A stretch of 64,000 bases of DNA from assembly GCA_963832025.1 (NCBI GenBank), contig CAWHSF010000003.1, forward strand, positions 207,665 to 271,664, in the 5' to 3' direction. The stretch is from Candidatus Nomurabacteria bacterium (GTDB lineage Bacteria > Patescibacteriota > Minisyncoccia > Phycocordibacterales > UBA9973). The notes beneath the pieces are model-generated. The model worked only from the letters and a program-made list of their open reading frames with translations. It was not told where the DNA came from and made no database searches. Every line of letters begins with the position of its first letter. The stretch's first letter is position 1. Below, one piece after another: positions 1 through 59,335 of the stretch. Position numbers and translations under genes: made by a program.

Positions 1-623
1 GCAGCACAAGAATTTATACCAATTAAAGAAGTCCGCGATGGAATAATCGTGTTAAAAAACGACGAGCTGCGGGCGATCGTTTTGGCCAATTCAATCAATC
101 TTTCCTTAAAATCAAACGATGAACAACAGGCAACTATTTTGCAATTTCAAAATTTTCTCAACACCTTGGATTTTCCAATACAAATATCGGTTCAGTCAAG
201 AAGACTGGATATTAGACCGTATCTTTTGCTTTTAGAAGATAGACTTAAGGTGCAAAGTGAGCCATTACTTAAACTGCAAACAAAAGAATACATAGAGTTC
301 ATTAAAAATTTTACTGACTACTGTGGCGATAATGACTAAAAGTTTTTTTGTGGTAGTGCCTTATACCCATACAACTTTAAAATCAGATTCTGGAATTTTT
401 GGAAGTTTTTTCTCTAAAAAGAGTAAAGAACAAACACAAGCAATGGCAGCAAGTTGATTTTGAAGAAAAAAGATCACAATTGGAGGAGAGAGTTGCTGTC
501 ATCCAGCAGGGTCTCGGGCGTTGTGGAATAAATTCTGCTCAGCTGGGAACCGAAGAAGTCGTGGAAGTTTTTTATAAAGTTTTCAATCCGGGAGAAGTTG
601 AAGGAAAAATAAAAGTTGAATAA
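1..623 (+). pseudogene. VirB4/TrbE-like ATPase, N-terminal region split over three reading frames (1-339, 302-457, 399-623)
   Basis: Open from base 1 (AAQEFIPIKEVRDGIIVLKND...). It continues as ...MTKSFFVVVPYTHT... in the +1 frame, then ...EERVAVIQQGLGRCGINSAQLGTEEVVEVFYKVFNP in the next +1 frame. Contiguous with the ATPase ORF at 616. Confidence 0.5.
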
Positions 624-2478
624 AAATATGATGGAATTTTTTAAAAAATTATTTGGTAAGAAAACATCCGCCAAAAAAGACGAGGCACAAATTTCCACTT
701 TGGCGGTTTTACCGGAAGAAATTTACAAATCTGCCAACCTGGAACTCCAGGATATCATTGCGCCATCAGCCTTAAAAATTGAATCTAAATCAATAAATTT
801 GGGCGAAAAAATTGCTCGCACTTTTTTTATCATATCTTATCCGAGATTTTTGAATGATAATTGGTTTTCTCCGATAATAAACTTGGATAAAGTTTTTGAT
901 ATTGCGATTTTTATCCATCCGATAGACACCTCGCTCATGCTCCGACAATTTCAAAAAAAGGTGGCCGAAGTGCAAAGCCAGATAAGCGTGCGTGAAACAA
1001 AAGGCATGGTACGTGACCCGATGCTTGATACCGCCTACCAAGACTTGGAAGGCCTGCGTGACAACTTAATTCAAGCGCAAGAAAAAATGTTTGATGTCGG
1101 TGTTTACATCACAATTTATGCGGACAACGAAATGGAACTTTTCAAAATTGAAAATGAAATAAAATCAATGTTGGAATCAAAGCTTATTTACATCAAACCA
1201 GCGCTTTTCCAACAAGAAGAAGGTTTTAAAAGTGTCATTCCGACAGAAACAGACTTATTGAACATTCATCAAAAATTAAATTCAGAGCCGCTTTCCAGTG
1301 TTTTTCCATTCATTTCTTCCGACCTGACTTCCGACAAAGGAATACTTTACGGTATCAACCGAACAAATTCCAGTTTGGTTATTTTTGATAGATTTTCCTT
1401 GGAAAACTACAATTCCGTAACCTTTGCCAAGTCCGGTTCTGGAAAATCTTATGCGACAAAATTGGAAATATTGAGGTCTTTGATGTTTGATACTGACGTC
1501 ATTGTGATAGACCCGGAAAGGGAATACGAATTTTTGGCTGAAGCTGTGGGCGGAAGATATTTTAATATTTCTCTTTCTTCGGAACACCACATCAATCCTT
1601 TTGATTTGCCGATGCCCCGCGAAGACGAAACAGCTGAAGATGTGTTACGTTCAAATATAATAAATTTGGTTGGACTTTTGCGTTTGATGTTGGGTGGACT
1701 CACTCCAGAAGAAGATTCCATGGTGGACCGAGCCATTTCGGAAACTTATGCGATGAAAGATATTACTCCGGAATCAGATTTTTCAAATATTGATCCTCCG
1801 CTTCTTTCCGATTTTGAAATGGTACTTTCCGGAATGGACGGAAGTGATTCCGTGGTGCAAAGACTGGTGAAATATACACGTGGCTCTTGGGCAACATTTT
1901 TAAACAGACCATCCAACGTAGACATTAATAAAAAATTCGTGGTATTTTCCGTTCGCGACATGGAAGACGAATTAAAACCAGTTGCCATGTATATCGTCAT
2001 GCATTATATTTGGACCGAGGTACGCAAAAATCTAAAAAAGCGTTTGCTCGTAGTGGATGAAGCTTGGTGGATGATGAAATCTGAAGACACCGCATCATTT
2101 TTGTATTCCATCGCCAAAAGAGGCAGAAAATATTATCTCGGCCTTTCCACCATCACCCAAGATGCGGCTGATTTTATGAAATCTCCATACGGAGTACCGA
2201 TAATCACCAACTCTTCTATCCAGCTTTTGTTAAAACAATCACCAACCACAATCGATATCTTGCAAAAAACTTTCAATCTGACGGATGAAGAAAAATATTT
2301 GCTTTTGGAGTCAAATGTTGGGGAAGGAATATTTTTTGCCGGACTAAAACACGTCGCGATAAAAATAATTGCTTCTTATACCGAAGACCAAATTATTACT
2401 TCCGACCCTTCTCAAATATTATCGAATAGAAAAGCTAAACAAGAACAGGAAGTAGCCGAAGAAGGGGGTAAGGTTTAA
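616..2478 (+). CDS. virB4: VirB4-like type IV secretion/conjugation ATPase (ATPase portion)
   Basis: 620-aa ORF; Walker A AKSGSGKSYATK; Walker B LLVVDEAWW; VirB4-like middle region YPRFLNDNWFSPII. Confidence 0.75.
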   Translation: MNKNMMEFFKKLFGKKTSAKKDEAQISTLAVLPEEIYKSANLELQDIIAPSALKIESKSINLGEKIARTFFIISYPRFLNDNWFSPIINLDKVFDIAIFIHPIDTSLMLRQFQKKVAEVQSQISVRETKGMVRDPMLDTAYQDLEGLRDNLIQAQEKMFDVGVYITIYADNEMELFKIENEIKSMLESKLIYIKPALFQQEEGFKSVIPTETDLLNIHQKLNSEPLSSVFPFISSDLTSDKGILYGINRTNSSLVIFDRFSLENYNSVTFAKSGSGKSYATKLEILRSLMFDTDVIVIDPEREYEFLAEAVGGRYFNISLSSEHHINPFDLPMPREDETAEDVLRSNIINLVGLLRLMLGGLTPEEDSMVDRAISETYAMKDITPESDFSNIDPPLLSDFEMVLSGMDGSDSVVQRLVKYTRGSWATFLNRPSNVDINKKFVVFSVRDMEDELKPVAMYIVMHYIWTEVRKNLKKRLLVVDEAWWMMKSEDTASFLYSIAKRGRKYYLGLSTITQDAADFMKSPYGVPIITNSSIQLLLKQSPTTIDILQKTFNLTDEEKYLLLESNVGEGIFFAGLKHVAIKIIASYTEDQIITSDPSQILSNRKAKQEQEVAEEGGKV

Positions 2479-2516
2479 TTGTAAGGTTCATAGAGTAGAA
2501 AGTCGCAAAGCTTGTA

Positions 2517-2525
2517 TGGTATAAT
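2517..2525 (+). promoter_or_regulatory. extended -10 box TGgTATAAT, 6 nt before ATG 2532 (leaderless-type)
   Basis: tatggtataat-taaatt-ATG read directly. Confidence 0.55.
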
Positions 2526-2531
2526 TAAATT

Positions 2532-3523
2532 ATGAAATTTAGGTTTCTATTACTGCTTTTAGTTACAATAATCATAACAACAGGTGTTATTTCACCGTTT
2601 AAAGTAAGTGCTTCTTCCCCCAGTGATGTTAGTATATCCACCGTTCCAGAAAACCCAGCTCCAAATCAAAATGTAACTATCACATTGAGCAGTTATGTAG
2701 ATGATTTGGATAGTGTTTTAATAACTTGGACTGTAAACGGAAAAAATTCTAGTTCGGGAATCGGCGATAAATCTTTTTCTTTAATCGCTCCAGCTTTGGG
2801 GCAAAAAACGACAGTCATAGCTACCATTTCTTTATCTGATGGAGATTTAAATGAAACGATACCGATAACCCCAGCAATAATGACCATGCTTTGGCAGGCA
2901 AATGATTCTTATGTGCCGCCTTTTTACGAGGGAAAAGCTTTGCCGTCACCGGACAGTGAAATAAAAGTTGTGGCTATGCCGGAAATAAAAAATGGTTCCA
3001 GTTTTGTCAATCCCACAAATATGACTTATGATTGGCAACTAGATGAAAACAATCGATGCGGACAATTCCGGTTATGGGAAAAATTCTTATATTTATGTAA
3101 GTGATTATTTGGATAATTCAAACAATGTTAGCGTGACAGCTTCTACTTTAGACCAACAAGACTTCAGTGGATGGAAGCTTAAATGTAGCAACCGTAAATC
3201 CAAAAATAGATTTTTATAAAGATGACCCAACTTTGGGAACTGTTTGGGAGAAGCAGTTTCAGATGGTATCAAGATTACGGGAAATGAAATTATTACAAGC
3301 TGCTCCATATTTCATATCACCAAAAGAGTTTAAGAATTCCTTTTTTGACATGGACCTGGTCTTTGAATGGAGCAACAGATTGCCGTGTCATCTTATAGTA
3401 GTAACATTATTGCCACTACAACTGCAAAACGGCATTCATGGAACATCTCAAATAGGCCTAGAGGTGAGCAATATTCACAGCTTGGTCAACACAGCCAGCA
3501 AGGAAATTAATGTAAATTTTTAA
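2532..3523 (+). pseudogene. secreted protein with signal peptide, interrupted by two +1 frame changes (2532-3104, ~3051-3219, 3167-3523)
   Basis: N-terminal signal peptide MKFRFLLLLLVTIIITTG. The sequence continues as IDADNSGYGKNSYIYVSDYLDNSNNVSVTASTLDQQDF in the +1 frame, then (V)DGSLNVATVNPKIDFYKDDP in the next +1 frame. Confidence 0.45.
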
Positions 3524-3529
3524 CATGAG

Positions 3530-3609
3530 TCCCGTTAGAAGTAACTTCTAATAATAACAATGTAATGATAAAAAACTATAAACAAAATAAAATAACTTCT
3601 AACGGGATG
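3530..3609 (+). repeat. intercistronic hairpin cassette, family G copy 3 (3' arm ends on ATG 3607)
   Basis: Left arm TCCCGTTAGAAGT (3530-3542). Proximal complement ACTTCTAA (3544-3551). Distal perfect complement ACTTCTAACGGGA (3595-3607), followed by TG. Confidence 0.7.
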
Positions 3610-4752
3610 AAAAAACTTTTATCGTACTTAATAATATTCATTGCGCTGGTCGCGATATTTGGCCCAACAATAAGAGTAAATGCACAGACATGCAATATGA
3701 ATGGTTATGATGGTAGCCCTACGGGAGCGTGTGATTATGGTGGCACCCCTGACTATACTGATTTTCAATCCACCCAAACTGAATGTAATGCTCAAATTGC
3801 CGCCAAGGATGCAGTATCTTTTATTCCTGACACATATGGGGTATGTACTATAAATGGTTCAGCAAATGCATGTTGGACAAAAACATCCTGTATACAAAAT
3901 AAGGGAACTTTTGCCGGTTACTATAATTTGTTACAGCCCCTTCCTGGAGTAGGCGCAACGTTTAATCCCATAAGCACTCCTGGTCAGCCAACTAGCTTGA
4001 GTAGCTACTTAAACCCAATGATAAATATTTTCATTGGTATTTGCGCAGTATTGGCTGTGATAATGATCTTAATGGGTGGAATTGAATACATGACAAGTGA
4101 ATTAATCTCAAGCAAAGAAGCAGGAAAGGAAAGAATAAGGAATGCTCTGCTTGGGCTTCTCTTGGCCCTCGGTGCTTGGAGTATTCTTAATACAATAAAT
4201 CCTAACTTACTTAAGTCTGATGTAAGTATTCCAGATGCAAATGTAACTACAAATATAACAGCGCAAAATTTTGCAAACTCTCCCTCAACGTACATTGTTC
4301 CTCTTGGCCAAACAGGAAAAACAAGTGGTACAAACTGTGATGAAAATGCAATTTCTACATCTAATCAAACGGCAAGCTCCGGTCTTAATAGTTCCCAGAT
4401 ACAGACACTTGCTTGTATAGGTGGGATAGAAAGCGGTTGTAACTCAGTCGTAAACTACAACTGGAATAATGGATCCTCTGCATATGGGCCTTTCCAGATA
4501 ACATTACAAACAAATGCTGGTTGTTTTGAAAATAGTGTTTGTCAGCAAGCAGCTGGAGTAAGTGGACCCCTTAATTGTGCCGCTGGATTCCATAATGGAA
4601 ATCCCATACCGGGTTCTCTAATTGTGGCACAATGCATGAAGGCTGCTGATAATTTTACCTGTAGTGTAGCTGCTGCCGCGTGTTTAATAAAACAGAACCC
4701 GAACTATAGCGACTGGAACGCAAACGGCAATCTTTCAAAATGCACATCATAA
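3607..4752 (+). CDS. T4SS-pilin-like protein (two hydrophobic helices) with Cys-rich N-terminal part and lytic-transglycosylase-like C-terminal region
   Basis: Signal peptide MKKLLSYLIIFIALVA. TrbC/VirB2-style hairpin IFIGICAVLAVIMILMGGIEYMTSE...ALLGLLLALGAWSILNTINPNL. The C-terminus has E-S...YGPFQI, resembling the SLT catalytic motif. The longest ORF starts at 3565; start 3607 is preferred. Confidence 0.55.
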   Translation: MKKLLSYLIIFIALVAIFGPTIRVNAQTCNMNGYDGSPTGACDYGGTPDYTDFQSTQTECNAQIAAKDAVSFIPDTYGVCTINGSANACWTKTSCIQNKGTFAGYYNLLQPLPGVGATFNPISTPGQPTSLSSYLNPMINIFIGICAVLAVIMILMGGIEYMTSELISSKEAGKERIRNALLGLLLALGAWSILNTINPNLLKSDVSIPDANVTTNITAQNFANSPSTYIVPLGQTGKTSGTNCDENAISTSNQTASSGLNSSQIQTLACIGGIESGCNSVVNYNWNNGSSAYGPFQITLQTNAGCFENSVCQQAAGVSGPLNCAAGFHNGNPIPGSLIVAQCMKAADNFTCSVAAAACLIKQNPNYSDWNANGNLSKCTS

Positions 4753-4768
4753 TTTAACCATAACTTTT

Positions 4769-6154
4769 ATGTCAAAAAGAAATTTTATACTTTTAATAAT
4801 CGTTCTCATTATCATCATCCTTGCTGTTTTTGGATTTTTGTTTTTCAACAAGCCAAGTGGTCAATCAGGAGGGAACACAACTGGCACAAATTTCTTTTCG
4901 CAATTTAATCCTTTTGCAAATGTCAAACCAAAAACACCGGTAACGACACCAGTGCAAACGCCGACAACGACACCAACGACAACTTCAACTCTTAATTTAA
5001 AACTGAAAGAAGTTTCCAGTATGCCAATAGCGGGTTTTACGATATTCAGCAAAGAAAGGTTGGTGCCAGTGGTAACAGCTACGACATCTTCAACCACCCC
5101 GCCTTCGGCACCCCTCCTTAATCAAGGAGGGGAAGGGGGTGGTAATTCTTCTTCCGCAACAAAAAAAACAACTATTAAAACAACCAAGCCAACTGCGCCA
5201 CCGACGGAAATGGCTCTAGCGTTAAGGTATGCTGCCAAGGCAACAGGAAATATTTATGAAACCTTTGCAGACACAATACAAGAAGGTCAATTTTCAACGA
5301 CAACAATCCCTGAAGTTTACGATGCTTATTTTGGAAACAACGGAAACTCGGTGGTGATGAGATACTTATCAGGAGACGAAGAAACGATTGAAACTTTTCT
5401 CGGAACATTACCAAAAGAAATTTTTGGTGCAGACACAATCGCCAACAATCAAATCACAGGGTCGTTGTTACCAAATAATATAAAAAGTATTAGTTTGTCA
5501 CCTGATACATCAAGCATGTTTTATTTATTTGACAGTGGAGACAGCATGATAGGCACAACTCTTAATTTTACAACCAATAAAAAAGTGCAAATTTTTACTT
5601 CTCCATTTACTGAATGGTCTTCCGGTTGGGGAAACAGTAAAATCATTACTCTTACCACAAAACCTACTTCGGGAATTCCCGGATATGTTTATGAAATGGA
5701 TCAAACTGGAAAAAATTTAAACCAGACTTTGGGAAACATTAATGGGCTTACCGCCTTACCTAGCCCGGACGGAAAATTTATACTTTATGGTGACAATAGT
5801 TTAAATTTAAATATTTACAATAAAAGCACCAATACTTCGACTTTGTTGGGAGTTAAAACTCTACCAGAAAAATGTGTCTGGAACAGTGGAAGTACCACAG
5901 TGTATTGCGCTGTACCAAAAGCTATCCCAGTAAACCAGTATCCGGATGCTTGGTATCAAGGAGAAGTTTCTTTTAATGATCAATTTTGGAAAATTAATGT
6001 TGGGACCGGAAACACCACTATGCTTGTAGACCCGATCACAATGCCCGGAGGGCAAGAAATTGATGGAATCAAACTTGCGGTAGATAGCGCTGAAAATTAT
6101 TTATTTTTTGTAAACAAAAAAGATTCTTATCTTTGGGAATTTTCTCTTAAATAG
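4769..6154 (+). CDS. membrane-anchored exported protein with Thr/Pro-rich linker and beta-propeller-like C-terminal part (hypothetical)
   Basis: 461-aa ORF; N-terminal TM LLIIVLIIIILAVFGFLFF; TPVTTPVQTPTTTPTTT linker; TolB-like PDGKFILYGDNS segment. Confidence 0.5.
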   Translation: MSKRNFILLIIVLIIIILAVFGFLFFNKPSGQSGGNTTGTNFFSQFNPFANVKPKTPVTTPVQTPTTTPTTTSTLNLKLKEVSSMPIAGFTIFSKERLVPVVTATTSSTTPPSAPLLNQGGEGGGNSSSATKKTTIKTTKPTAPPTEMALALRYAAKATGNIYETFADTIQEGQFSTTTIPEVYDAYFGNNGNSVVMRYLSGDEETIETFLGTLPKEIFGADTIANNQITGSLLPNNIKSISLSPDTSSMFYLFDSGDSMIGTTLNFTTNKKVQIFTSPFTEWSSGWGNSKIITLTTKPTSGIPGYVYEMDQTGKNLNQTLGNINGLTALPSPDGKFILYGDNSLNLNIYNKSTNTSTLLGVKTLPEKCVWNSGSTTVYCAVPKAIPVNQYPDAWYQGEVSFNDQFWKINVGTGNTTMLVDPITMPGGQEIDGIKLAVDSAENYLFFVNKKDSYLWEFSLK

Positions 6155-8285: not shown

Positions 8286-9626
8286 ATGAATACGAAACAA
8301 CTTTGGAAAAATTGCTTAGCGGAAATCGAAACTGGTATATCAAAAGCAAATTTCAGCACTTGGTTTAAAAACACCTCTATTGTAAGAGAAGATACCGGCA
8401 TTATCTATATTGGAGTACCAAATGAGTTCGTTCGTGACTGGCTAATGAATAAATACCACAAACTTATCACCAAAACCATCGCGGATGAATACGAAAATAT
8501 GCGCGCCGTGGAATATACGATTTCTAAAATAGAAAACCTGAGCCAAGAAGTAACCATCACGAAAGAAACTATTGAAAAAGAACTGCCCTTGAAGGATTTA
8601 TACATTAATCCAGAAGATAATTTAAACCCACGCTACCATTTCAATTCTTTTATCGTGGGAACTTTCAACGAACTTGCCTATGCAGCGGCACAAGCAATCA
8701 TAGAATCTCCCGGAACTAAATATAACCCGTTCTTCATTTACGGAGGCACCGGATTGGGGAAAACTCACCTGATTCAAGCGGTTGGGAACTCCATCAAAGA
8801 AAAATATCCAAATAAAAAAGTTCATTATATGACCTTGGAAAAATTTGCGACAGATTTTATAAATTCTCTGCAAAACAACAAAGCAAACTCCTTTAAAGAA
8901 AAATATCGCAAATACGACCTTTTAATCATAGATGACATTCAATTTATCGGGAAAATGGAAAAAATCCAAGAGGAACTTTTCCACACATTCAACACTTTTT
9001 ACGAAAACAACAAACAAATTATTTTTTCTTCCGACAAACACCCCAATTACATTCCGGAGTTGGCCGATCGTTTAAAATCTCGTTTTGCCGCCGGTATGAT
9101 TGTAGACATTTCGGAACCGGAATATGAGTCTCGTTTAGCAATCTTGAAAGTGAAACTGCGAGAACAAAACATTGAATTAGAAGAAGAACTTGTTGAATAT
9201 GTCGCAAGCTCCGTGCAGGGAAATATTCGCGAGCTAGAGGGGAGTTTAAATCTTATCGTTTGCCAATATCGCTTGAAAAATAAGCCTCTAACGCTCCTCG
9301 AGGTGAAAAACTTGTTAAAAAACAACATGAAACCCAAAAAGAATATGGCCATCAAAGATGTTGTAAAAATTGTGAGTGAATATTATAAACTTGAAGAACT
9401 CTCTGTTTATGAAAAGACTAGAAAAAAAGAAATAGTTAAGGCTAGGCAGATTGTGATGTATCTGCTCCGAGAAGACTTTAATGTTTCTTATCCTTTGATT
9501 GGACAAAAGCTAGGAGGGAAAGACCATACCACGGTTATACACTCTTGTTTAAAAATTAAAAAAGATTTAAAGAACGACCCACAACTTTTGCAAGAACTGG
9601 AACAAATAAGGATAATGTTCAAATAG
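8286..9626 (+). CDS. dnaA: chromosomal replication initiator DnaA
   Basis: 446 aa; AAA+ Walker A GGTGLGKTHL; C-terminal DNA-binding domain (...GGKDHTTVIHS...). Confidence 0.95.
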   Translation: MNTKQLWKNCLAEIETGISKANFSTWFKNTSIVREDTGIIYIGVPNEFVRDWLMNKYHKLITKTIADEYENMRAVEYTISKIENLSQEVTITKETIEKELPLKDLYINPEDNLNPRYHFNSFIVGTFNELAYAAAQAIIESPGTKYNPFFIYGGTGLGKTHLIQAVGNSIKEKYPNKKVHYMTLEKFATDFINSLQNNKANSFKEKYRKYDLLIIDDIQFIGKMEKIQEELFHTFNTFYENNKQIIFSSDKHPNYIPELADRLKSRFAAGMIVDISEPEYESRLAILKVKLREQNIELEEELVEYVASSVQGNIRELEGSLNLIVCQYRLKNKPLTLLEVKNLLKNNMKPKKNMAIKDVVKIVSEYYKLEELSVYEKTRKKEIVKARQIVMYLLREDFNVSYPLIGQKLGGKDHTTVIHSCLKIKKDLKNDPQLLQELEQIRIMFK

Positions 9627-11286: not shown

Positions 11287-13827
11287 CTATTGTGAAACTT
11301 TAAATACAGAATCCGTTTCACTACTATTATATTGCGTATCGTAAGAAATTATTTTTAAAGTGTTGCTTGCCTGCAGGTTCTCTAAATTTTCTGGAATGAA
11401 AGAAAAAGCAAATGGTGGAGTAATGGTTTCTTGATAAACACCATTTATATAAATATCCATTTTTTGCAACGGGAATGTACCAGAACTTGATATTTGTAGA
11501 TTTATTTTTTGTCCTGGTTGATAAACAGTCGTAGTATCTGGGGAAACGACTGAGACCACAGGTTTGTTTTGGTCGGTATGAATGTTGTCCGCGGCTACTG
11601 GTTTGTCAGCAAGCGTTACTATCGGGTACTTACTTTTATTTTGTGCCCACCAATTTTGTACCGGTACATCCCAGTGTTCAAATTGTGGATCGCTTGCCGG
11701 GTTTACCGGTGGTGGCCCTAAAATATCATTTCTATCCACCCAATATAAAATTGAATGTACATTTGTTATCACTTTTTCTTCCAAAGTTTGACTTGGTGTA
11801 TCGGAAGTAGCTAAAAGTCCGGTAGTTTTATCTATGAAAAAATTATCATTGCCCTCCCAGAAGCCTCGCAAAGCAGGTTTTACAAGCATCGGATTTGTGG
11901 TTAAATCCGGTTTTTCAAATGTTTCTTTTGGGAGGGTTGCCAAAGCTTGTGTCATAAACTGATTCCAGATGGGTCCGGCAACTGCAACTCCGCCGTTTTT
12001 CATTGGAGTATCGTTATTATTTCCTGCCCAAACTCCTACAACTAAAGAAGGAGTGTAGCCAATTGTCCAAGCGTCTTTATCATTATTTGTCGTTCCTGTT
12101 TTAACTGCGACATCTTTACCGGGAATATATAAAGCCGAGTGTACTCCAAAAGTTGGTTCACGGGCTGTTTCATCGGAAAGAATATCCGAAATAGTTAAAG
12201 CGGTATTCTTGGGCAGAACTTGTTGCAGAGTTGGCTGATATTGCTCTAAAATTTTTCCGGTCAAATCTTGAACCTGCAAGATTCCAGTGTAAGGGTTCCT
12301 TAACCCATCATTTGCGAACACTCCGTAAGCTGAGGTCATATCCAAAAGAGAAACTTCTCCACCTCCGATAACCAAAGTGAGTCCATACTGCTCCGCATCA
12401 CCCAGGGTGCTAATACCCATGTTTTCCGCTGTTTGCAGAGAGTTTTGTTCTCCGGTTAGGTAATAAAGTTTTACTGCCGGAATATTGATTGATTGGGCAA
12501 GTGCGTTTCTCAAACTAATTGGGCCACGATATTTTCCATCAAAATCTTGTGGCATATAGCAATCACTTTGGCTGTGACCTGGGAGTGCTTTACCATAAGC
12601 ATCACAGGTCGTTTGGAATTCTGTGGGTAAGTCAAACAGCACGGTGTCCGGAGTAAAGCCCTCATTAAAGGCTGTAGCGTAAATAAAAGGCTTAAAGGAA
12701 GAGCCTGGTTGTCTAGTGGCCGTGGCAACGTTGAAATTACCGTCTATTGTTTTATCAAAATAATCTCTTGAACCTACCATCGCCAGCACTTGTCCGGTTT
12801 TTGGGTCTATTGCCACAAGAGCGGCGTTTGATGCATTCCAAGTTTTCTCGTTCTGCAAAGCGCCATTTTTTACAATTTGTTCCGCCTGCGCCTCCAAATT
12901 GGCATCCAAGGTCGTAATAACTTTTAATCCACCGTTTTCCACCAGATCCGTGCCATATTTTTGTTCCAAGTAATCTTGAATCCAAAAAACAAAGTGCGGA
13001 GCTATTATGCCCGAGGTTGCCTGTGGAACAAAAGTTACAACTTCATTTTTTGCTTGGTCGTATTGAGCTTGTGTAATCATTTTGAGATCCAACATTCTAG
13101 ACAAGACTAAATTTTTCCTTTCATCTAGTTTATCTTTATTTTTCCCATAAGGAGAAAGAATGCTGGGGGATTGTGGGATTGATGCTAAATATGCGGCTTG
13201 CGCCAAATCCAAATCCGATGCATCAATACTAAAATAATTTTTACTGGCTGCCTCAATACCATAAATATTTCCTCCATAAGGAATTGCATTCAAATATGCC
13301 TCCAAGATGTCGTCTTTTGACATTGAATGGTCTATCTTTATTGCTAAAACCCATTCCTTGATTTTTCTGATGTAACTTCTATCCGATGTAAGCAAAGTAT
13401 TTTTTACCAATTGTTGGGTTATGGTAGAACCACCACCTCCGACTCCAATATGAAAAACATCAGAAAATGCCGCACGCAAAGTAGAGCTAATCCTAACTCC
13501 TCCCTCTGTGTAGAAATTTGAATCCTCGATTGCAATCGTTGCATTTTTAATGTTTGGGCTCATTTGAGCTAGCGGAATGTCAGTTCTTTTTACGTCGTTG
13601 TGTATATCATAAAGCAAAATTTTACCTGTTCGGTCATAAATTTGTGTGGAATTGGCAACCTTTCTGTCCGCGAAAGAATGAAAATCCGGAATCTTCAAAG
13701 AAGACAACATTATTACCACTGCTCCGGAAAATAAAATAAAAAGGCTAATGACAAATAAGGCTAAGTTTTTCAGCAACCGCTTGTTTTTATATAAATTTTT
13801 AAGTTTTCTAAAGATTTTTTTCACCAT
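11287..13827 (-). CDS. bifunctional penicillin-binding protein 1A (glycosyltransferase + transpeptidase) with C-terminal extension
   Basis: GT51 motif EDSNFYTEGG; transpeptidase SSFKP (SxxK) and KTGTT; N-terminal TM. Confidence 0.9.
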   Translation of the reverse strand: MVKKIFRKLKNLYKNKRLLKNLALFVISLFILFSGAVVIMLSSLKIPDFHSFADRKVANSTQIYDRTGKILLYDIHNDVKRTDIPLAQMSPNIKNATIAIEDSNFYTEGGVRISSTLRAAFSDVFHIGVGGGGSTITQQLVKNTLLTSDRSYIRKIKEWVLAIKIDHSMSKDDILEAYLNAIPYGGNIYGIEAASKNYFSIDASDLDLAQAAYLASIPQSPSILSPYGKNKDKLDERKNLVLSRMLDLKMITQAQYDQAKNEVVTFVPQATSGIIAPHFVFWIQDYLEQKYGTDLVENGGLKVITTLDANLEAQAEQIVKNGALQNEKTWNASNAALVAIDPKTGQVLAMVGSRDYFDKTIDGNFNVATATRQPGSSFKPFIYATAFNEGFTPDTVLFDLPTEFQTTCDAYGKALPGHSQSDCYMPQDFDGKYRGPISLRNALAQSINIPAVKLYYLTGEQNSLQTAENMGISTLGDAEQYGLTLVIGGGEVSLLDMTSAYGVFANDGLRNPYTGILQVQDLTGKILEQYQPTLQQVLPKNTALTISDILSDETAREPTFGVHSALYIPGKDVAVKTGTTNNDKDAWTIGYTPSLVVGVWAGNNNDTPMKNGGVAVAGPIWNQFMTQALATLPKETFEKPDLTTNPMLVKPALRGFWEGNDNFFIDKTTGLLATSDTPSQTLEEKVITNVHSILYWVDRNDILGPPPVNPASDPQFEHWDVPVQNWWAQNKSKYPIVTLADKPVAADNIHTDQNKPVVSVVSPDTTTVYQPGQKINLQISSSGTFPLQKMDIYINGVYQETITPPFAFSFIPENLENLQASNTLKIISYDTQYNSSETDSVFKVSQ

Positions 13828-45034: not shown

Positions 45035-48000
45035 TTATTCTTGTACTGTTGTTGTGGTAGTTTTCTTTCCGAGAGGTTGATGATCTACAACAGTGGTAGT
45101 TCTTTTGATAAAAGGAGCTGTGGGCGGTGGAAGATATGCTGGATTTATTTTTCTTTGTCCGTAAATATATTTTGCTAACAATATCAATATAAGAATAAGT
45201 ATGATTATGATAAGCCAACCAAATATATTTGTCGGGAAGAAGCCAGCTCCGAAAGCGAATGCTCCAAGAGGGGAGGTCGTTCCGGTTGTTGCACTCCATA
45301 CTTGAGCGGAAACATTCGCATTGACTGATTGAGAATTACCGGAAGGGTCAACATAGTTTAAGGTTGCAGGGAAGTTGAGCAATGTGCCTGCGGTTGCGTC
45401 GCTGTTTACCTGTGTTTTTACTGTTACCACACCGGAAGCTCCTCCTCTAAGTGTTCCCAAGTTGAATACCAAAGTATTTCCGAGAACATTAGGATTGATT
45501 GGGTTCGATGAAAGATAAGTTACTTCTTGTGGCAACACTAACTGCAAACTTAGATTGGTAGCAGATCCTGTTCCGACATTTTGATAATTTATAGTGTAAT
45601 TAATTTCATCTCCTGGGTGTGGTCTGGTGTTGTCAATTGTAGGAACAATCGGTTGGTCTCTATTTACCGAAGAAGTAATAAGAAGAAGTGAACTTGCAGC
45701 TGTCCTGTTTACATATCTGATTACTGTCGTCGGACTCTGTGCCCCAGTTGTGGTAAAGCTTAATATATAACCATTACTACTTTGATAGGAATCTTGCGCA
45801 ATTGCTCGGAAGTAATAAGTTGTTCCAGGGCTTAATCCACTCAATGTGTCTGTGTGTATAACCGATGGCAATGTTCCGACAGCTGTGGTTGTAGTCGTAT
45901 TTCCCAAATTTATAGTTGGGCCCCACTCAAACCAAGCATTTATTGGGCTGGAATCAGAACTGCTAATTAAGGAGTTCAATTGTGCACTGGTGCTTAATAC
46001 TTGTGTTGCTTGCGTGGTGACGACACTTAGATTGCTTGCTATTGGTTGTGGATATATTGGTGTTGGAACGGGATATACCGGAACTATTGGTTGATAGTTT
46101 TGATTTACATAAACAGTGGTTGAACCAGTCGCTTGCTGTCCGGTGCTACTAGTACAAACAATATTGTAAGTAGTTGTATAAGTTAGAGCTCCAGTAGTTA
46201 TACTGCCGGAAGTACTTTGTGTTCCGGAAAGTCCATTGTAACCACCAGTAATACTACAATAACTTGCGTTAGTTGAGTTCCAAGAAATAATACTGGAACC
46301 ATTATAGTTGACACTGGAAGGATTTGCGTAAATGTTGACGGTAGGTTGCAAAATTTGATTTTGATTTACATAAACAGTGGTTGAACCAGTCGCTTGCTGT
46401 CCGGTGCTACTAGTACAAACAATATTGTAAGTAGTTGTATAAGTTAGAGCTCCAGTAGTTATACTGCCGGAAGTACTTTGTGTTCCGGAAAGTCCATTGT
46501 AACCACCAGTAATACTACAATAACTTGCGTTAGTTGAGTTCCAAGAAATAATACTGGAACCATTGTAGTTGACACTGGAAGGATTTGCGTAAATGTTGAC
46601 GGTAGGAATCTGGTTTTGAATTTGATTTACCGACACCGTCGCTGAAGCACTTACTTGTGTTCCATTGGTTCCATAACAAGTAATTGAATAGGTTGTAGTT
46701 CCACTTGGTACTACAACTCCGGAACCACTAGTTGCTGTACTGGAAGTCCAGTAAGCCTGACAAGATGTTGCGTTATTTGAACTCCAAGTAAGTGTAGAGT
46801 TTGCTCCGGATTGGATGGAAGTTGGGTTGGCGTAAAGAGAAACGGTTGGGTTTTGATATTGAATCTGATTTACCGACACCGTCGCTGAAGCACTTACTTG
46901 TGTTCCATTGGTTCCATAACAAGTAATTGAATAGGTTGTAGTTCCACTTGGTACTACAACTCCGGAACCACTAGTTGCTGTACTGGAAGTCCAGTAAGCC
47001 TGACAAGATGTTGCGTTATTTGAACTCCAAGTAAGTGTAGAGTTTGCTCCGGATTGGATGGAAGTTGGGTTGGCGTAAAGAGAAACGGTTGGGTTTTGAT
47101 ATTGAATCTGATTTACCGACACCGTCGCTGAAGCACTTACTTGTGTTCCATTGGTTCCATAACAAGTAATTGAATAGGTTGTAGTTCCACTTGGTACTAC
47201 AACTCCGGAACCACTAGTTGCTGTACTGGAAGTCCAGTAAGCCTGACAAGATGTTGCGTTATTTGAACTCCAAGTAAGTGTAGAGTTTGCTCCGGATTGG
47301 ATGGAAGTTGGGTTGGCGTAAAGAGAAACGGTTGGGTTTTGATATTGAATCTGATTTACCGACACCGTCGCTGAAGCACTTACTTGTGTTCCATTGGTTC
47401 CATAACAAGTAATTGAATAGGTTGTAGTTCCACTTGGTACTACAACTCCGGAACCACTAGTTGCTGTACTGGAAGTCCAGTAAGCCTGACAAGATGTTGC
47501 GTTATTTGAACTCCAAGTAAGTGTAGAGTTTGCTCCGGATTGGATGGAAGTTGGGTTGGCGTAAAGAGAAACGGTTGGGTTTTGAATCTGTTGCGCTGCT
47601 ACTGTTACCGTCGCATATGCGGAAGCTTGTGCTCCGGTACTGCTGGTACAAGTAAGATTGTAAGAAGTTGTATTAGCTAAAGCTCCAGTATTAAAACTAC
47701 CGGAAGTATTTTGATTTCCTCCCCAACCATTTGTACCACCACTTGCGATGCAAGATGTTGCGTTGGTGGAATTCCAAGTTAAGATACTTGTTCCATTGTA
47801 AGCTACGGAAGTTGGATTAGCGGAAAGAGAAACTGTCGGCTGAACCTGACCACTCACTGACACCGTCGCATAGGCGGAAGCTTGTGCTCCGGTACTGCTG
47901 GTACAAGTAAGATTGTAAGAAGTTGTATTAGCTAAAGCTCCAGTATTAAAACTACCGGAAGTATTTTGATTTCCTCCCCAACCATTTGTACCACCACTTG

Positions 48001-48967
48001 CGATGCAAGAAGTTGCGTTAGTAGAATTCCAAATTAACGTACTTGTTCCATTGTAAGCTACGGAAGTTGGATTAGCGGTTAAACTGACAGTTGGGGTTTT
48101 TATCTGTTGAGTTACCGACACCGTCGCTGAAGCACTTACTTGTGTTCCATTGGTTCCATAACAAGTAATTGAATAGGTTGTAGTTCCACTTGGTACTACA
48201 ACTCCGGAACCACTAGTTGCTGTACTGGAAGTCCAGTAAGCCTGACAAGATGTTGCGTTATTTGAACTCCAAGTAAGTGTAGAGTTTGCTCCGGATTGGA
48301 TGGAAGTTGGGTTGGCGTAAAGAGAAACGGTTGGGTTTTGAATCTGTTGCGCTGCTACTGTTACCGTCGCATATGCGGAAGCTTGTGCTCCGGTACTGCT
48401 GGTACAAGTAAGATTGTAAGAAGTTGTATTAGCTAAAGCTCCAGTATTAAAACTACCGGAAGTATTTTGATTTCCTCCCCAACCATTTGTACCACCACTT
48501 GCGATGCAAGATGTTGCGTTGGTGGAATTCCAAGTTAAGATACTTGTTCCATTGTAAGCTACGGAAGTTGGATTAGCTGTAAGGTTAACGGTTGGTGTAA
48601 CTACAGTAGGTTGGCAAGAAGCGGTAGTAAAAGAAACCATACTTCCGGACCATGATCCTTGAGGGGCATTGTTGAATTCTGTTTCATAATAATATGTAGT
48701 GTTTTGAGTGAGACCATTTATTACGGCACTGAAATCCGAATACGCAGTATAAGTTTGAGGAGTCGTGGAATATCCGAGAGATGGAGTAGGTCCCCATTCA
48801 AACCAAGCTGAAGTCGGAGTTCCGTTTGGACTTACGTAGCCATTTAAGGTTGCGCTGTTGCAAGTCTGCACTTGATATTGTGCTGCTGCTTTGTTTACAT
48901 TAATAAAAAGCCCGAAAACGGTAACGAAAACGATAAACATGGATATTGATAACTTTTTCATATTCAT
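45035..48967 (-). CDS. giant cell-surface repeat protein (signal peptide, FN3-like ends, 10 Ig-like tandem repeats, DUF11-like domain, C-terminal TM anchor)
   Basis: 1310 aa. N-terminal MNMKKLSISMFIVFVTVFGLF. Two ...WFEWGPT... modules. Three repeat types (A x3, B x5, C x2). C-terminal WLIIIILILILILLAKY anchor. Confidence 0.8.
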   Translation of the reverse strand: MNMKKLSISMFIVFVTVFGLFINVNKAAAQYQVQTCNSATLNGYVSPNGTPTSAWFEWGPTPSLGYSTTPQTYTAYSDFSAVINGLTQNTTYYYETEFNNAPQGSWSGSMVSFTTASCQPTVVTPTVNLTANPTSVAYNGTSILTWNSTNATSCIASGGTNGWGGNQNTSGSFNTGALANTTSYNLTCTSSTGAQASAYATVTVAAQQIQNPTVSLYANPTSIQSGANSTLTWSSNNATSCQAYWTSSTATSGSGVVVPSGTTTYSITCYGTNGTQVSASATVSVTQQIKTPTVSLTANPTSVAYNGTSTLIWNSTNATSCIASGGTNGWGGNQNTSGSFNTGALANTTSYNLTCTSSTGAQASAYATVSVSGQVQPTVSLSANPTSVAYNGTSILTWNSTNATSCIASGGTNGWGGNQNTSGSFNTGALANTTSYNLTCTSSTGAQASAYATVTVAAQQIQNPTVSLYANPTSIQSGANSTLTWSSNNATSCQAYWTSSTATSGSGVVVPSGTTTYSITCYGTNGTQVSASATVSVNQIQYQNPTVSLYANPTSIQSGANSTLTWSSNNATSCQAYWTSSTATSGSGVVVPSGTTTYSITCYGTNGTQVSASATVSVNQIQYQNPTVSLYANPTSIQSGANSTLTWSSNNATSCQAYWTSSTATSGSGVVVPSGTTTYSITCYGTNGTQVSASATVSVNQIQYQNPTVSLYANPTSIQSGANSTLTWSSNNATSCQAYWTSSTATSGSGVVVPSGTTTYSITCYGTNGTQVSASATVSVNQIQNQIPTVNIYANPSSVNYNGSSIISWNSTNASYCSITGGYNGLSGTQSTSGSITTGALTYTTTYNIVCTSSTGQQATGSTTVYVNQNQILQPTVNIYANPSSVNYNGSSIISWNSTNASYCSITGGYNGLSGTQSTSGSITTGALTYTTTYNIVCTSSTGQQATGSTTVYVNQNYQPIVPVYPVPTPIYPQPIASNLSVVTTQATQVLSTSAQLNSLISSSDSSPINAWFEWGPTINLGNTTTTTAVGTLPSVIHTDTLSGLSPGTTYYFRAIAQDSYQSSNGYILSFTTTGAQSPTTVIRYVNRTAASSLLLITSSVNRDQPIVPTIDNTRPHPGDEINYTINYQNVGTGSATNLSLQLVLPQEVTYLSSNPINPNVLGNTLVFNLGTLRGGASGVVTVKTQVNSDATAGTLLNFPATLNYVDPSGNSQSVNANVSAQVWSATTGTTSPLGAFAFGAGFFPTNIFGWLIIIILILILILLAKYIYGQRKINPAYLPPPTAPFIKRTTTVVDHQPLGKKTTTTTVQE
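46101..46622 (-). repeat. 2 x 261-bp near-identical tandem coding repeat (type C)
   Basis: tgatttacataaacagtggttgaacc... recurs at 46101 and 46362. Confidence 0.85.
46624..47585 (-). repeat. 4 x 243-bp tandem coding repeat (type B), apparently identical at nucleotide level
   Basis: gatttaccgacaccgtcgctgaagc... starts at 46624, 46867, 47110 and 47353. Units 2 and 3 read identical by eye. Confidence 0.9.
47586..48600 (-). repeat. interleaved type A / type B repeat units (A3, A2, B1, A1) with long identical stretches
   Basis: ttgaatctgttgcgctgctactgttaccgtcgcatatgcgg occurs near 47580 and again near 48320. Confidence 0.75.
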
Positions 48968-58187: not shown

Positions 58188-58212
58188 AATAGCAACCGGA
58201 ACCAAAATATCG

Positions 58213-58218
58213 TATACT
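58213..58218 (+). promoter_or_regulatory. -10 box TATACT, 6 nt before pilM ATG 58225
   Basis: tcgtatact-attaac-ATG. Confidence 0.4.
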
Positions 58219-58224
58219 ATTAAC

Positions 58225-59331: not shown

Positions 59332-59335
59332 AAAG

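What the first reader, a model, noticed from the sequence alone, without database searches (positions are those of the whole stretch)
1..6154. T4SS-like cluster: fragmented VirB4, decayed secreted protein, pilin-lytic transglycosylase-like fusion, propeller-like protein
The only recognisable secretion ATPase here is VirB4-like. Its N-terminal domain needs three frame changes, and the following secreted protein needs two, while the 395-aa pilin-like gene is intact. That protein combines three parts: an exported Cys-rich region, a TrbC/VirB2-style double-helix hairpin, and a C-terminal Cys-rich region containing E-S...YGPFQI, which resembles the catalytic signature of soluble lytic transglycosylases (VirB1-like function). 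A pilin fused to a wall-cutting enzyme would be an unusual economy. The cluster may be a DNA-uptake or conjugation-derived apparatus that is partly decaying.
Basis: inference. Interest (0 to 1): 0.55.

Follow-up and report, generated by a model that had tools for sequence, protein, structure and literature searches.

The report
T4SS pilin fused to lysozyme domain
This is the already-described chromosomal type IV secretion cluster of ultrasmall Patescibacteria; its single pilin gene really is fused to a lysozyme-like wall-cutting domain (a widespread design that the papers I could search do not discuss), while the apparent gene decay is most likely a local sequence-quality problem.

Summary
Window 1-6154 is the distal half of the dnaA-proximal type IV secretion system (T4SS) of Paceibacteria/Nomurabacteria, a system described in 2023-2025. 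The gene order TrsD-like, VirB4, secreted protein, pilin fusion, membrane protein is kept in about 80 related genomes.

VirB4 (628-2478) is intact. The "N-terminal domain" is a separate upstream gene in every relative, so one of the three "frame changes" is a normal gene boundary. That upstream gene has two 1-nt insertions. The secreted protein has seven 1-nt indels, not two.

The indels are unique to this assembly. They sit in two short patches, outside homopolymers. After frame correction there is no excess of amino-acid change compared with intact sister genes. Assembly error is therefore more likely than decay, though reads are needed to settle it.

The 395-aa protein is confirmed as signal peptide, Cys-rich beta domain, VirB2-like helical hairpin (Pfam T4SS_pilin, above threshold) and a C-terminal lysozyme-fold domain. 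That domain has an invariant Glu-Ser, a pLDDT 94 model, and a profile match to C-type lysozyme at E 2.6e-6. It is not a member of Pfam SLT.

At the same position, relatives carry NlpC/P60, VanY/M15, YkuD, amidase or SLT domains. Pilin plus wall enzyme is thus a modular, lineage-wide design.

The parts
1..623 (+). TrsD-like gene, homologous to the N-terminal domain of VirB4. It is a separate gene in all relatives. Its 5' end is cut by the window start, and it has two 1-nt insertions near 319 and 446 (frames 1, 2, 3). Stop codon TAA at 621-623.
   Evidence: Frame-aware alignment to the intact 213-aa L001 orthologue gives 188/206 identical residues after correction. NCBIfam matches the orthologue to VirB4_plasma positions 102-283 (E 3.6e-11), conju_CD1110 positions 2-166 (E 3e-5) and TrsD (E 1.2e-4). 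It reads in a single frame in 76 relatives.
628..2478 (+). VirB4-type T4SS ATPase, intact (616 aa counted from ATG 628).
   Evidence: NCBIfam conju_CD1110 scores 365.3 bits against a cutoff of 325, covering model positions 182-733 of 752. Pfam P-loop_TraG E 1.7e-24. It is 93% identical to L001 over 615 aa in one frame. Walker A (KSGSGKS) and Walker B (LLVVDEAW) can be read in the translation.
2532..3523 (+). Secreted or membrane-anchored protein of about 330 aa with probable Ig-like repeats. In this assembly it is broken by six 1-nt insertions and one 1-nt deletion between about 3048 and 3406.
   Evidence: Frame-aware alignment to the intact 331-aa L001 orthologue. Nucleotide alignment with intact L082 and L083. 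It is intact at 314-374 aa in 73 of 75 relatives. Weak Ig-like Pfam hints: BiPBP_C 7, Ig_3 6 and PKD_3 4 of 43 orthologues. No PDB sequence match.
3565..3690 (+). N-terminal signal peptide region of the pilin fusion (residues 1-42). The true start may be ATG 3607.
   Evidence: Hydrophobic segment at residues 13-41, followed by a conserved V-x-A-Q. Most homologues start at the MKK that corresponds to 3607.
3691..3969 (+). Variable Cys-rich extracytoplasmic beta-rich domain (residues 43-135).
   Evidence: Six Cys. The AF2 model shows beta strands with pLDDT about 76-92. The domain is poorly conserved or absent in homologues.
3991..4200 (+). VirB2/TrbC-like two-helix pilin hairpin (residues 143-212).
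   Evidence: Pfam T4SS_pilin E 7.8e-7, 29.5 bits against a cutoff of 26.6; TrbC E 0.015. NCBIfam Mbov_0395 pilin-like E 9.1e-8. AF2 helices at 144-177 and 181-211. It is the only pilin-like ORF in the 64-kb window.
4213..4332 (+). Disordered linker (residues 217-256).
   Evidence: pLDDT below 50 for residues 218-256.
4333..4752 (+). Lysozyme-fold domain (residues 257-395) with 8 to 10 conserved Cys. Catalytic-type Glu289-Ser290 lies at 4429-4434 and YGPFQI at 4483-4500.
   Evidence: AF2 pLDDT 94, pTM 0.89. A family profile matches human C-type lysozyme at E 2.6e-6, with Glu35 aligned to Glu289. All 20 Foldseek PDB matches are lysozyme-superfamily folds; the top one is a C-type lysozyme with probability 0.97 and TM 0.48-0.56, but E values are 0.2-7. 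BFVD matches are SLT and phage tail lysozymes. Across 43 homologues E289 43/43, S290 40/43, G308 43/43, Q311 43/43.
4769..6154 (+). Conserved 461-aa protein with an N-terminal transmembrane helix, a Thr/Pro-rich linker and a C-terminal globular domain of unknown fold. A beta-propeller is possible but unproven.
   Evidence: Orthologue present at the same position in 67 loci, 400-541 aa. No Pfam, NCBIfam or PDB match. PD40 hints in 3 of 45 orthologues, best E 0.0029; one orthologue carries PG_binding_1.

Best explanation
The region is the downstream half of the conserved, chromosomal, dnaA-adjacent type IV secretion system of Paceibacteria (Patescibacteria/CPR). This system is related to monoderm conjugation machines.

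Shown by tool results:
- VirB4 is naturally encoded as two genes, a TrsD-like N-domain protein and the ATPase.
- These are followed by a secreted protein of about 330 aa, one VirB2-like pilin gene and a membrane-anchored protein of about 460 aa.
- The pilin gene encodes, in order, a signal peptide, a variable Cys-rich domain, the two-helix pilin hairpin, a flexible linker and a disulfide-rich lysozyme-fold domain.
- That last domain has a single conserved catalytic Glu (Glu-Ser ... G-x-F-Q), as in lytic transglycosylases and g-type lysozymes.

Inferred mechanism:
- After Sec export, both globular domains lie outside the membrane and the hairpin loop faces the cytoplasm.
- The hairpin docks the enzyme to the T4SS, either in the membrane or as a pilus subunit.
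- The tethered glycan-cleaving domain then does the VirB1 job: it opens peptidoglycan locally where the machine or pilus must pass. That could be the cell's own wall, since a class A PBP is encoded nearby, and possibly the wall of the host bacterium.
- Relatives carry other wall enzymes at the same place, so the selected property is 'a peptidoglycan-active enzyme attached to the pilin'.

Frameshifts (inferred): the nine single-base frameshifts in the trsD-like and secreted-protein genes are most likely local errors in the deposited assembly. The cluster is probably functional.
For: Cluster identity:
- Synteny PrgI, TrsD-like, VirB4, Sec, pilin, p467, then jag-yidC-rnpA-dnaA, in L001 and in 80 genome loci.
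- NCBIfam and Pfam assignments.
- The published description of VirB4 + TrsD + PrgI/VirB3 + VirB6 + VirB2-like pilins near dnaA (PMC12102498).
- The Southlakia T4SS is essential for epibiotic growth (PMC10633639).

Fusion:
- T4SS_pilin scores above threshold.
- The C-terminal model has pLDDT 94.
- The family profile matches C-type lysozyme at E 2.6e-6, with catalytic Glu aligned.
- Fold matches are exclusively lysozyme-superfamily.
- Glu289 is invariant.
- All 10 diverse carriers of the domain that were tested also have T4SS_pilin.

Modularity:
- Of 72 syntenic genes, 62 have T4SS_pilin. They also carry NLPC_P60 10, VanY 8, YkuD 5, Peptidase_M15_4 3, Amidase_5 3, SLT_2 2, Amidase_2 1 and SLT 1.
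- In Southlakia, a lysozyme-like/Cys-protease protein and an M15B peptidase are separate genes next to virB4, and the pilins are small and separate. The protein here joins two functions that are neighbours there.
- The organism has its own wall: a class A PBP at 11287-13827.

Frameshifts as artefact:
- They are unique among about 76-80 loci.
- Eight of the nine are 1-nt insertions; nucleotide alignment places the seven Sec indels outside homopolymer runs, and the two trsD insertions sit in non-homopolymer context. All nine are confined to patches of about 130 nt and about 360 nt.
- None falls in the 1.85-kb ATPase gene between the patches (P about 0.001 if placement were uniform).
- There are no in-frame stops after correction.
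- Window-specific amino-acid changes at conserved sites number 13, against 21 in the intact sister L082 and 10 against 15 for L001.
- dN/dS is 0.17 in the frameshift zone.
- All 20 other ORFs of the window tested with Pfam, including the pairs that looked as if they might be split genes, are full-length matches to distinct families or have no match; none is a fragment.
Against: - No enzymatic or structural data exist for this protein family. Foldseek E values are individually non-significant (0.2-7), and the window protein alone reaches no Pfam lysozyme or SLT threshold.
- Nothing shows that a hairpin flanked by globular domains of about 90 and about 140 aa can polymerise into a pilus.
- YkuD and VanY domains in relatives are remodelling enzymes rather than lytic ones. 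This fits a general wall-maintenance role as well as a VirB1-like role.
- The artefact reading cannot be proven without reads. The frameshifted 190-aa fragment is in the deposited annotation of the same 430,556-bp contig.
- Two other assemblies have in-frame stops in these same two genes (L007 Sec, L030 TrsD), so sporadic real inactivation is conceivable.
- Why errors would cluster only here, in an otherwise clean 64-kb window, is unexplained.
Confidence: 0.62

Rival explanations
1. Genuine, very recent pseudogenisation. In this genome the trsD-like and secreted-protein genes have been inactivated by real single-base indels, so the T4SS is being lost or rewired while VirB4, the pilin fusion and p461 remain intact.
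For: The frameshifts are in the deposited contig, and its annotation calls the 190-aa fragment. Two other MAGs carry in-frame stops in exactly these genes. The ATPase between them is untouched, which could reflect selection.
Against: Seven indels fall within 360 nt with no nonsense codon and no excess of lineage-specific substitutions (13 against 21 and 10 against 15). dN/dS is 0.17. The insertions are not in homopolymers, where natural slippage occurs. TrsD is reported as essential in the one genetically tested relative (PMC12102498). About 76-80 relatives are intact.
Confidence: 0.22
2. The pilin-like hairpin is only a membrane anchor. These proteins are housekeeping wall-remodelling enzymes of the CPR cell that use a VirB2-derived two-helix hairpin as a transmembrane anchor. 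They neither polymerise nor act with the T4SS.
For: The fused domains include non-lytic remodelling enzymes such as YkuD and VanY/M15. Large globular domains flank the hairpin. The organism makes its own peptidoglycan.
Against: The position is strictly conserved inside the T4SS operon, directly after VirB4 and Sec, in about 70 loci. It is the only VirB2-like gene in the window. In Southlakia, wall hydrolases sit next to virB4 and are reported essential together with the pilins.
Confidence: 0.25
3. The C-terminal domain is a non-catalytic glycan-binding or adhesion module built on a lysozyme scaffold, as alpha-lactalbumin and sperm lysozyme-like proteins are. It would be used to hold on to peptidoglycan.
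For: The second carboxylate of C-type lysozymes (Asp53) is Ala in 41 of 43 members. The hits include non-enzymatic lysozyme-like proteins (rank 15).
Against: The general acid Glu289 is invariant, and Ser290 and the G-x-F-Q strand are conserved. Single-Glu enzymes of this fold (lytic transglycosylases, g-type lysozymes; established knowledge) are active. Relatives at the same position carry clearly catalytic domains.
Confidence: 0.1

Closest known systems
Patescibacterial T4SS (MPF-FATA-related; Quinonero-Coronel et al. 2025, PMC12102498; Southlakia epibionticum SEML1_0006-0019, Wang et al. 2023, PMC10633639)
   Same: It has the VirB4 ATPase with a separate TrsD-like N-domain gene, PrgI/VirB3 and VirB6-like genes upstream in relatives, and a VirB2-like pilin in a monoderm system. 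It lies next to dnaA and has no relaxase or coupling protein in the cluster.
   Different: In Southlakia the pilins are small (about 130 aa) and arrayed, and the lysozyme-like and M15B enzymes are separate genes. Here a single pilin gene is fused to the enzyme. The 2025 survey states that pilus biogenesis seems not to need VirB1 and does not mention such fusions.
VirB1-type T4SS wall hydrolases (VirB1; TraG of pIP501; PrgK of pCF10)
   Same: It is a peptidoglycan-active, lysozyme-fold domain encoded inside a T4SS operon. The presumed role is to open the wall locally.
   Different: It has no detectable membership of the VirB1/SLT families. It is covalently joined to the pilin hairpin rather than being a free or separately anchored protein. 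In relatives the enzyme class at this position changes.
C-type lysozyme (GH22, Pfam PF00062) and Pfam SLT_3 'Lysozyme like domain' (PF18896)
   Same: The profile-to-sequence match is E 2.6e-6 over the catalytic helix and beta-hairpin, with Glu35 aligned to Glu289 and C30 aligned to C284. The C-terminal helix and Trp are also collinear. It is rich in disulfides. A family member reaches 26.3 bits on SLT_3 against a cutoff of 27.
   Different: Asp53 is replaced by Ala. The window protein scores 13.7 bits on PF00062 against a cutoff of 27. The family is bacterial, always pilin-linked and small: 99 clusters among 1.84 billion representatives.
VirB2/TrbC pilins and the Mycoplasma ICE pilin-like protein (NCBIfam NF045849, Mbov_0395 family)
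   Same: It has the two-helix hydrophobic hairpin after a signal peptide. T4SS_pilin scores above threshold.
   Different: The hairpin is embedded between two globular extracytoplasmic domains. NF045849 scores 31.7 bits, below its cutoff of 40. Pilus formation is unknown.

Membership tests
VirB4 family ATPase (NCBIfam NF045971 conju_CD1110) | Whole-protein score above the curated cutoff | tested here: met
   365.3 bits against a cutoff of 325, covering model positions 182-733 of 752
VirB4 family ATPase (NCBIfam NF045971 conju_CD1110) | Walker A and Walker B nucleotide-binding motifs | tested here: met
   KSGSGKS and LLVVDEAW are read directly in the translation of 616-2478
VirB4 family ATPase (NCBIfam NF045971 conju_CD1110) | N-terminal domain within the same polypeptide | tested here: not met
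   Model positions 2-166 are matched by the separate upstream 213-aa protein. A stop codon and a new start separate the two genes here and in all relatives
TrsD/TraD family (NCBIfam NF041427) | Score above the curated cutoff | tested here: not met
   22 bits against a cutoff of 200 (E 1.2e-4). Homology to VirB4 N-terminal regions is clearer (E 3.6e-11). hhalign against this lineage's own ATPase N-terminal region was negative
T4SS_pilin (Pfam PF18895) / VirB2-TrbC pilins | Score above the Pfam gathering threshold | tested here: met
   29.5 bits against 26.6, residues 147-211
T4SS_pilin (Pfam PF18895) / VirB2-TrbC pilins | Signal peptide followed by a two-helix hydrophobic hairpin | tested here: met
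   Hydrophobic segments at 13-41, 145-181 and 193-212. AF2 helices at 144-177 and 181-211
T4SS_pilin (Pfam PF18895) / VirB2-TrbC pilins | Polymerises into an extracellular pilus | not testable with these tools
   This needs microscopy or biochemistry. The flanking globular domains make it uncertain
SLT / family 1 lytic transglycosylases (Pfam PF01464, GH23) | Pfam SLT match | tested here: not met
   No SLT hit for the window protein at E up to 1. Only 4 of 43 family members give weak hits, best E 8.1e-4
SLT / family 1 lytic transglycosylases (Pfam PF01464, GH23) | Catalytic Glu-Ser followed by a G-x-x-Q strand, with a single carboxylate | tested here: met
   E289 43/43, S290 40/43, G308 43/43, Q311 43/43. 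The Asp53-equivalent position is Ala in 41/43
C-type lysozyme (Pfam PF00062, GH22) | Pfam Lys match above threshold | tested here: not met
   13.7 bits against a cutoff of 27, E 0.075. Homology is still supported by the family profile against PDB lysozyme C at E 2.6e-6
C-type lysozyme (Pfam PF00062, GH22) | Two catalytic carboxylates (Glu35 and Asp53) | tested here: not met
   Glu is present; the Asp position is Ala
Lysozyme-like fold superfamily | Predicted structure matches lysozyme-fold proteins | tested here: met
SLT_3 (Pfam PF18896) | Score above the gathering threshold | tested here: inconclusive
   11 of 43 members give weak hits. The best full-length member scores 26.3 bits against 27. 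The window protein itself gives no hit
Beta-propeller (PD40/TolB-like), for ORF 4769-6154 | Repeated PD40/WD40-like blades detectable by profile or structure | tested here: inconclusive
   PD40 in 3 of 45 orthologues (best E 0.0029) and NBCH_WD40 in 2 of 45. No PDB sequence match.
Pseudogene (trsD-like and secreted-protein genes) | Reading frame disrupted relative to intact orthologues | tested here: met
   2 and 7 frameshifts respectively
Pseudogene (trsD-like and secreted-protein genes) | Relaxed constraint on the affected lineage | tested here: not met
   Window-specific changes 13 against 21 (L082) and 10 against 15 (L001). dN/dS 0.17. No in-frame stops after correction
Pseudogene (trsD-like and secreted-protein genes) | Lesions supported by independent reads or assemblies | not testable with these tools
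   Only one contig carries these sequences. No same-species contig was found in the metagenome collection

The most novel reading that the evidence does not exclude
In Paceibacteria the sole T4SS pilin is a modular carrier that displays interchangeable peptidoglycan-active enzymes on the pilus or at the tip of the secretion machine. The enzymes seen are lysozyme-like, NlpC/P60, M15/VanY, YkuD, amidase and SLT domains. Together they would form an 'enzymatic pilus' that drills or remodels the wall of the host bacterium. The enzyme cassette would be swapped, as in polymorphic toxins, to match the host's wall chemistry. This would give a concrete mechanism for how wall-bearing ultrasmall episymbionts gain access to their hosts.
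Probability: 0.2. Interest if true: 0.8.

Novelty: new variant of a known kind. Interest (0 to 1): 0.42.

Why it matters
The patescibacterial T4SS is essential for epibiotic growth in the one tested species, and what it does is unknown. The current literature treats its VirB2-like pilins as plain pilins. It also concludes that VirB1-type wall hydrolases are mostly missing (PMC12102498).

The evidence here changes that picture for a large Paceibacteria lineage:
- The only pilin gene of the operon is covalently joined to a wall enzyme.
- The enzyme class is exchanged between species at a fixed genomic position.

This links pilin and hydrolase functions, as a Rosetta-stone fusion does. It suggests where the 'missing VirB1' is and gives a defined protein to test for host-wall attack. 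It also identifies a small lysozyme-fold family that has no Pfam model, and that family is always linked to a pilin.

The practical lesson about the 'decay' is the opposite of exciting. It is probably a data-quality artefact and should not be read as loss of the T4SS.

Tried and rejected
- Foldseek of the full-length model against PDB returned only helical-hairpin noise. I therefore modelled the C-terminal domain on its own.
- hhalign of the TrsD-like profile against this lineage's own VirB4 N-terminal region found nothing (probability 0.6%). The homology was instead shown with NCBIfam full-length VirB4 models.
- Profiles of p461 and of the secreted protein against PDB sequences gave no meaningful hits.
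- The look-up of encoding contigs could not locate the source contig. The cluster look-up gave no accession or name, so the source genome and its sequencing technology remain unknown.
- A degenerate DNA pattern scan of the metagenome collection found nothing. The protein-based scan found four intact relatives but no contig of the same species.
- I considered programmed frameshifting and rejected it. There are nine sites with no shared motif and both +1 and -1 shifts, and none is conserved in relatives.
- I considered an alternative genetic code and rejected it. The disruptions are frame shifts, not stop codons, and relatives read through with table 11.
- P0121 and P0138 in the exhaustive search are repeat proteins that match only a stretch of about 30 aa. 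They are false positives.

Full report
**What is in the sequence.**
Window 1-6154 carries five co-directional genes on the + strand. They are followed on the - strand by jag (R3H domain), yidC, yidD, rnpA and rpmH, and then by dnaA at 8286-9626 on the + strand. GC content is about 37%.

The ORFs are:
- three short ORFs in frames 1, 2 and 3 (49-339, 323-457, 399-623);
- a 620-aa ORF (616-2478);
- three ORFs in three frames (2532-3104, 3043-3219, 3167-3523);
- an intact 395-aa ORF (3565-4752);
- an intact 461-aa ORF (4769-6154).

**Identity of the cluster.**
A syntenic JGI contig (L001) has the order PrgI (138 aa), a 213-aa protein, a 615-aa P-loop ATPase, a 331-aa secreted protein, a 377-aa T4SS_pilin protein, a 467-aa protein, then jag, yidC, rnpA and dnaA. 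A scan of one genome per species returned 80 further loci. All are from Nomurabacteria, Paceibacteria or other Patescibacteria MAGs, their ATPases are 74-93% identical, and they keep the same gene order.

This is the patescibacterial T4SS described by Quinonero-Coronel et al. 2025. It comprises VirB4, a separate TrsD protein homologous to the VirB4 N-terminus, PrgI/VirB3, VirB6 and VirB2-like pilins. It often lies next to dnaA and usually lacks a relaxase (PMC12102498). In Southlakia epibionticum the cluster is essential for epibiotic growth (PMC10633639).

**VirB4 is split by design, not fragmented.**
NCBIfam places the 213-aa upstream protein on positions 2-166 of the conju_CD1110 VirB4 model and on positions 102-283 of VirB4_plasma (E 3.6e-11). 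The 615-aa ATPase covers positions 182-733 with 365 bits against a cutoff of 325. However, the two parts are separate genes in every relative, often in different frames. The 'third frame change' at 616-631 is simply TAA 621-623 followed by ATG 628. The ATPase has no lesion and is 93% identical to L001 over its full length.

**The frameshifts.**
A frame-aware protein-to-DNA alignment finds two 1-nt insertions in the trsD-like gene, near 319 and 446. It finds seven frame changes in the secreted-protein gene, not two. Nucleotide alignment with two intact relatives found later, L082 (79% aa identity) and L083, resolves the seven. They are six single-base insertions (C, C, A, G, G, A) and one single-base deletion, all between about 3064 and 3406 and none in a homopolymer run.

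Four observations argue against ordinary gene decay:
- Among about 76 TrsD and about 79 secreted-protein orthologues, all read in one frame.
- The nine indels fall in two patches of about 130 and about 360 nt. The 1.85-kb ATPase gene between them has none, which has P about 0.001 under uniform placement.
- After correction there is no in-frame stop, and identity to orthologues is normal: 91% for TrsD, and 69-79% for the secreted protein.
- At sites conserved in outgroups, the window lineage has 13 private amino-acid changes against 21 in the intact sister L082, and 10 against 15 for L001. dN/dS in the frameshift zone is 0.17.

Real pseudogenes accumulate many more substitutions than indels (established knowledge). 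Seven indels without any relaxation therefore point to sequence or assembly error, or to events so recent as to be indistinguishable from it.

Against this:
- The rest of the window looks clean. All 20 other ORFs tested with Pfam, including the pairs that looked as if they might be split genes, are full-length matches to distinct families or have no match; none is a fragment.
- The lesions are present in the deposited contig.
- Two other MAGs have in-frame stops in these same two genes.

I put about 70-75% on artefact and about 20-25% on very recent real lesions. Only reads can decide.

**The pilin fusion.**
The 395-aa protein has these parts:
- a signal-type hydrophobic N-terminus;
- a variable six-Cys beta-rich domain (residues 43-135);
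- two long hydrophobic helices (144-177 and 181-211) that pass Pfam T4SS_pilin (29.5 bits against 26.6);
- a disordered linker (218-256);
- a compact C-terminal domain.

It is the only pilin-like ORF in the 64-kb window.

The C-terminal domain alone gives no Pfam hit above threshold, so I tested it in four ways:
- phmmer against PDB sequences already picks human lysozyme at sub-significant E (0.18). It aligns LACIGGIESGCNS...NNGSSAYGPFQI with MCLAKWESGYNT...GDGSTDYGIFQI (the 1di3 variant of human lysozyme), and also aligns the later helix plus Trp.
- An exhaustive HMMER search of 1.84 billion representatives finds only 99 clusters. Apart from two repeat-protein false positives and a few shorter, apparently partial sequences, they are proteins of about 300-560 aa with the domain at the C-terminus.
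- A 43-sequence profile of the family hits C-type lysozymes at E 2.6e-6, with catalytic Glu35 aligned to the invariant Glu289.
- AlphaFold2 with that alignment gives pLDDT 94. All 20 Foldseek matches in the PDB are lysozyme-superfamily folds: c-type first, then g-type, GH19 and Rpf. Viral matches are SLT and tail-lysozyme domains. The E values are individually weak (0.2-7).

Glu289, Gly308 and Gln311 are invariant and Ser290 is nearly so. The position of the second lysozyme carboxylate (Asp53) is Ala in 41 of 43 members. The domain is therefore a lysozyme-fold enzyme of the single-Glu type. The chemistry expected is that of lytic transglycosylases or g-type lysozymes, which is an inference. 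By thresholds it belongs to neither Pfam SLT nor Pfam Lys. One relative reaches 26.3 bits on SLT_3 against a cutoff of 27.

**The fusion is a lineage-wide, modular design.**
All 10 diverse carriers of the C-terminal domain that I scanned have T4SS_pilin in front of it.

Among the 120 best full-length homologues, the pilin domain is joined to NlpC/P60, YkuD, VanY, Peptidase_M15_4, SLT_2 or Amidase_5.

At the same syntenic position in 72 loci, 62 proteins have T4SS_pilin, and these wall-enzyme domains were also found:

| Pfam domain | Proteins (of 72) |
|---|---|
| NLPC_P60 | 10 |
| VanY | 8 |
| YkuD | 5 |
| Peptidase_M15_4 | 3 |
| Amidase_5 | 3 |
| SLT_2 | 2 |
| Amidase_2 | 1 |
| SLT | 1 |

The remaining proteins have C-termini that Pfam does not recognise, as here.

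In Southlakia the corresponding functions are separate genes. SEML1_0006 has two lysozyme-like domains plus a cysteine protease, SEML1_0007 is M15B-like, and both lie next to virB4. The pilins SEML1_0014-0019 are small. The Paceibacteria protein is thus a Rosetta-stone fusion of neighbours.

The papers I could search do not mention it. [quoted passage not shown] The adjacent Pfam accessions of T4SS_pilin (PF18895) and SLT_3 (PF18896) suggest to me that database curators saw a similar architecture. That is my inference and was not tested.

**Mechanism.**
Shown: the domain order, the predicted topology elements, the conserved catalytic-type residues, the operon position, and the presence of the cell's own wall-synthesis machinery (a class A PBP at 11287-13827).

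Inferred:
- Both globular domains are extracytoplasmic, as VirB2 topology would place them.
- The hairpin docks the enzyme to the T4SS.
- The enzyme cuts glycan strands where the machine or pilus crosses a wall.

Not decided: whether the hairpin still polymerises, and whether the target is the cell's own wall or the host's. The exchange of enzyme classes between species is compatible with adaptation to different host walls. It is equally compatible with a generic need for local wall remodelling.

**Other genes.**
The secreted protein gives only weak Ig-like hints. The 461-aa protein has an N-terminal transmembrane helix, a Thr/Pro-rich linker and a conserved C-terminal domain. PD40 hints appear in only 3 of 45 orthologues, and one orthologue carries PG_binding_1. 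'Propeller-like' remains an untested guess.

**Verdict.**
- The cluster is a known system.
- VirB4 is intact.
- The 'decay' is probably an artefact.
- The pilin-lysozyme fusion is real.
- The fusion is a widespread variant, not discussed in the papers I could search, that revises the 'missing VirB1' picture.

Overall this is moderately interesting.

Noticed in passing
L007:3595-4581 and L030:8602-9240: Two other MAGs have single in-frame stop codons in the same two genes that are frameshifted in the window. The Sec orthologue of L007 has TAG at codon 34. The TrsD orthologue of L030 has TAA at codon 154, in the same linker as the window's second frameshift.
   Followed up: partly
window 58168-59878: Type IV pilus assembly genes pilM (PilM_2, E 6.4e-31) and a pilN-like gene lie about 52 kb from the T4SS. 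The genome therefore carries a second surface-filament system, as reported for other Patescibacteria.
   Followed up: no
window 11287-13827 (-): A class A penicillin-binding protein (transglycosylase plus transpeptidase) lies close to the T4SS. The organism makes its own peptidoglycan, which is relevant to whether the pilin-linked enzyme acts on the cell's own wall.
   Followed up: partly
window 45035-48967 (-): A 1310-aa protein with DUF11 and Ig-like (FixG_C) domains, likely a giant surface or adhesin-type protein.
   Followed up: no
One of the 45 rows of alignment A6 (p461 orthologues); the locus was not identified: One orthologue of the 461-aa protein carries a PG_binding_1 domain (E 5.9e-11). 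This hints that the conserved last gene of the operon also contacts peptidoglycan.
   Followed up: no
window 1-2478 and 3991-4200: The best NCBIfam matches are to Mycoplasma ICE components: Mbov_0397 VirB4_plasma, and the Mbov_0395 pilin-like protein at 31.7 bits against a cutoff of 40. Wall-less Mollicutes ICEs may therefore be the closest characterised monoderm T4SS that has a pilin-like subunit.
   Followed up: no
window 3565-3606: The annotated start at 3565 adds 14 residues (MIKNYKQNKITSNG) before the MKK start used by most homologues.
   Followed up: partly
P0121 and P0138: Two giant repeat proteins (2175 aa with 40 repeats, 3256 aa with 22 repeats) scored highly against the lysozyme-like domain. 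They match only a stretch of about 25-34 aa, repeated many times, so they are false positives for the family.
   Followed up: yes
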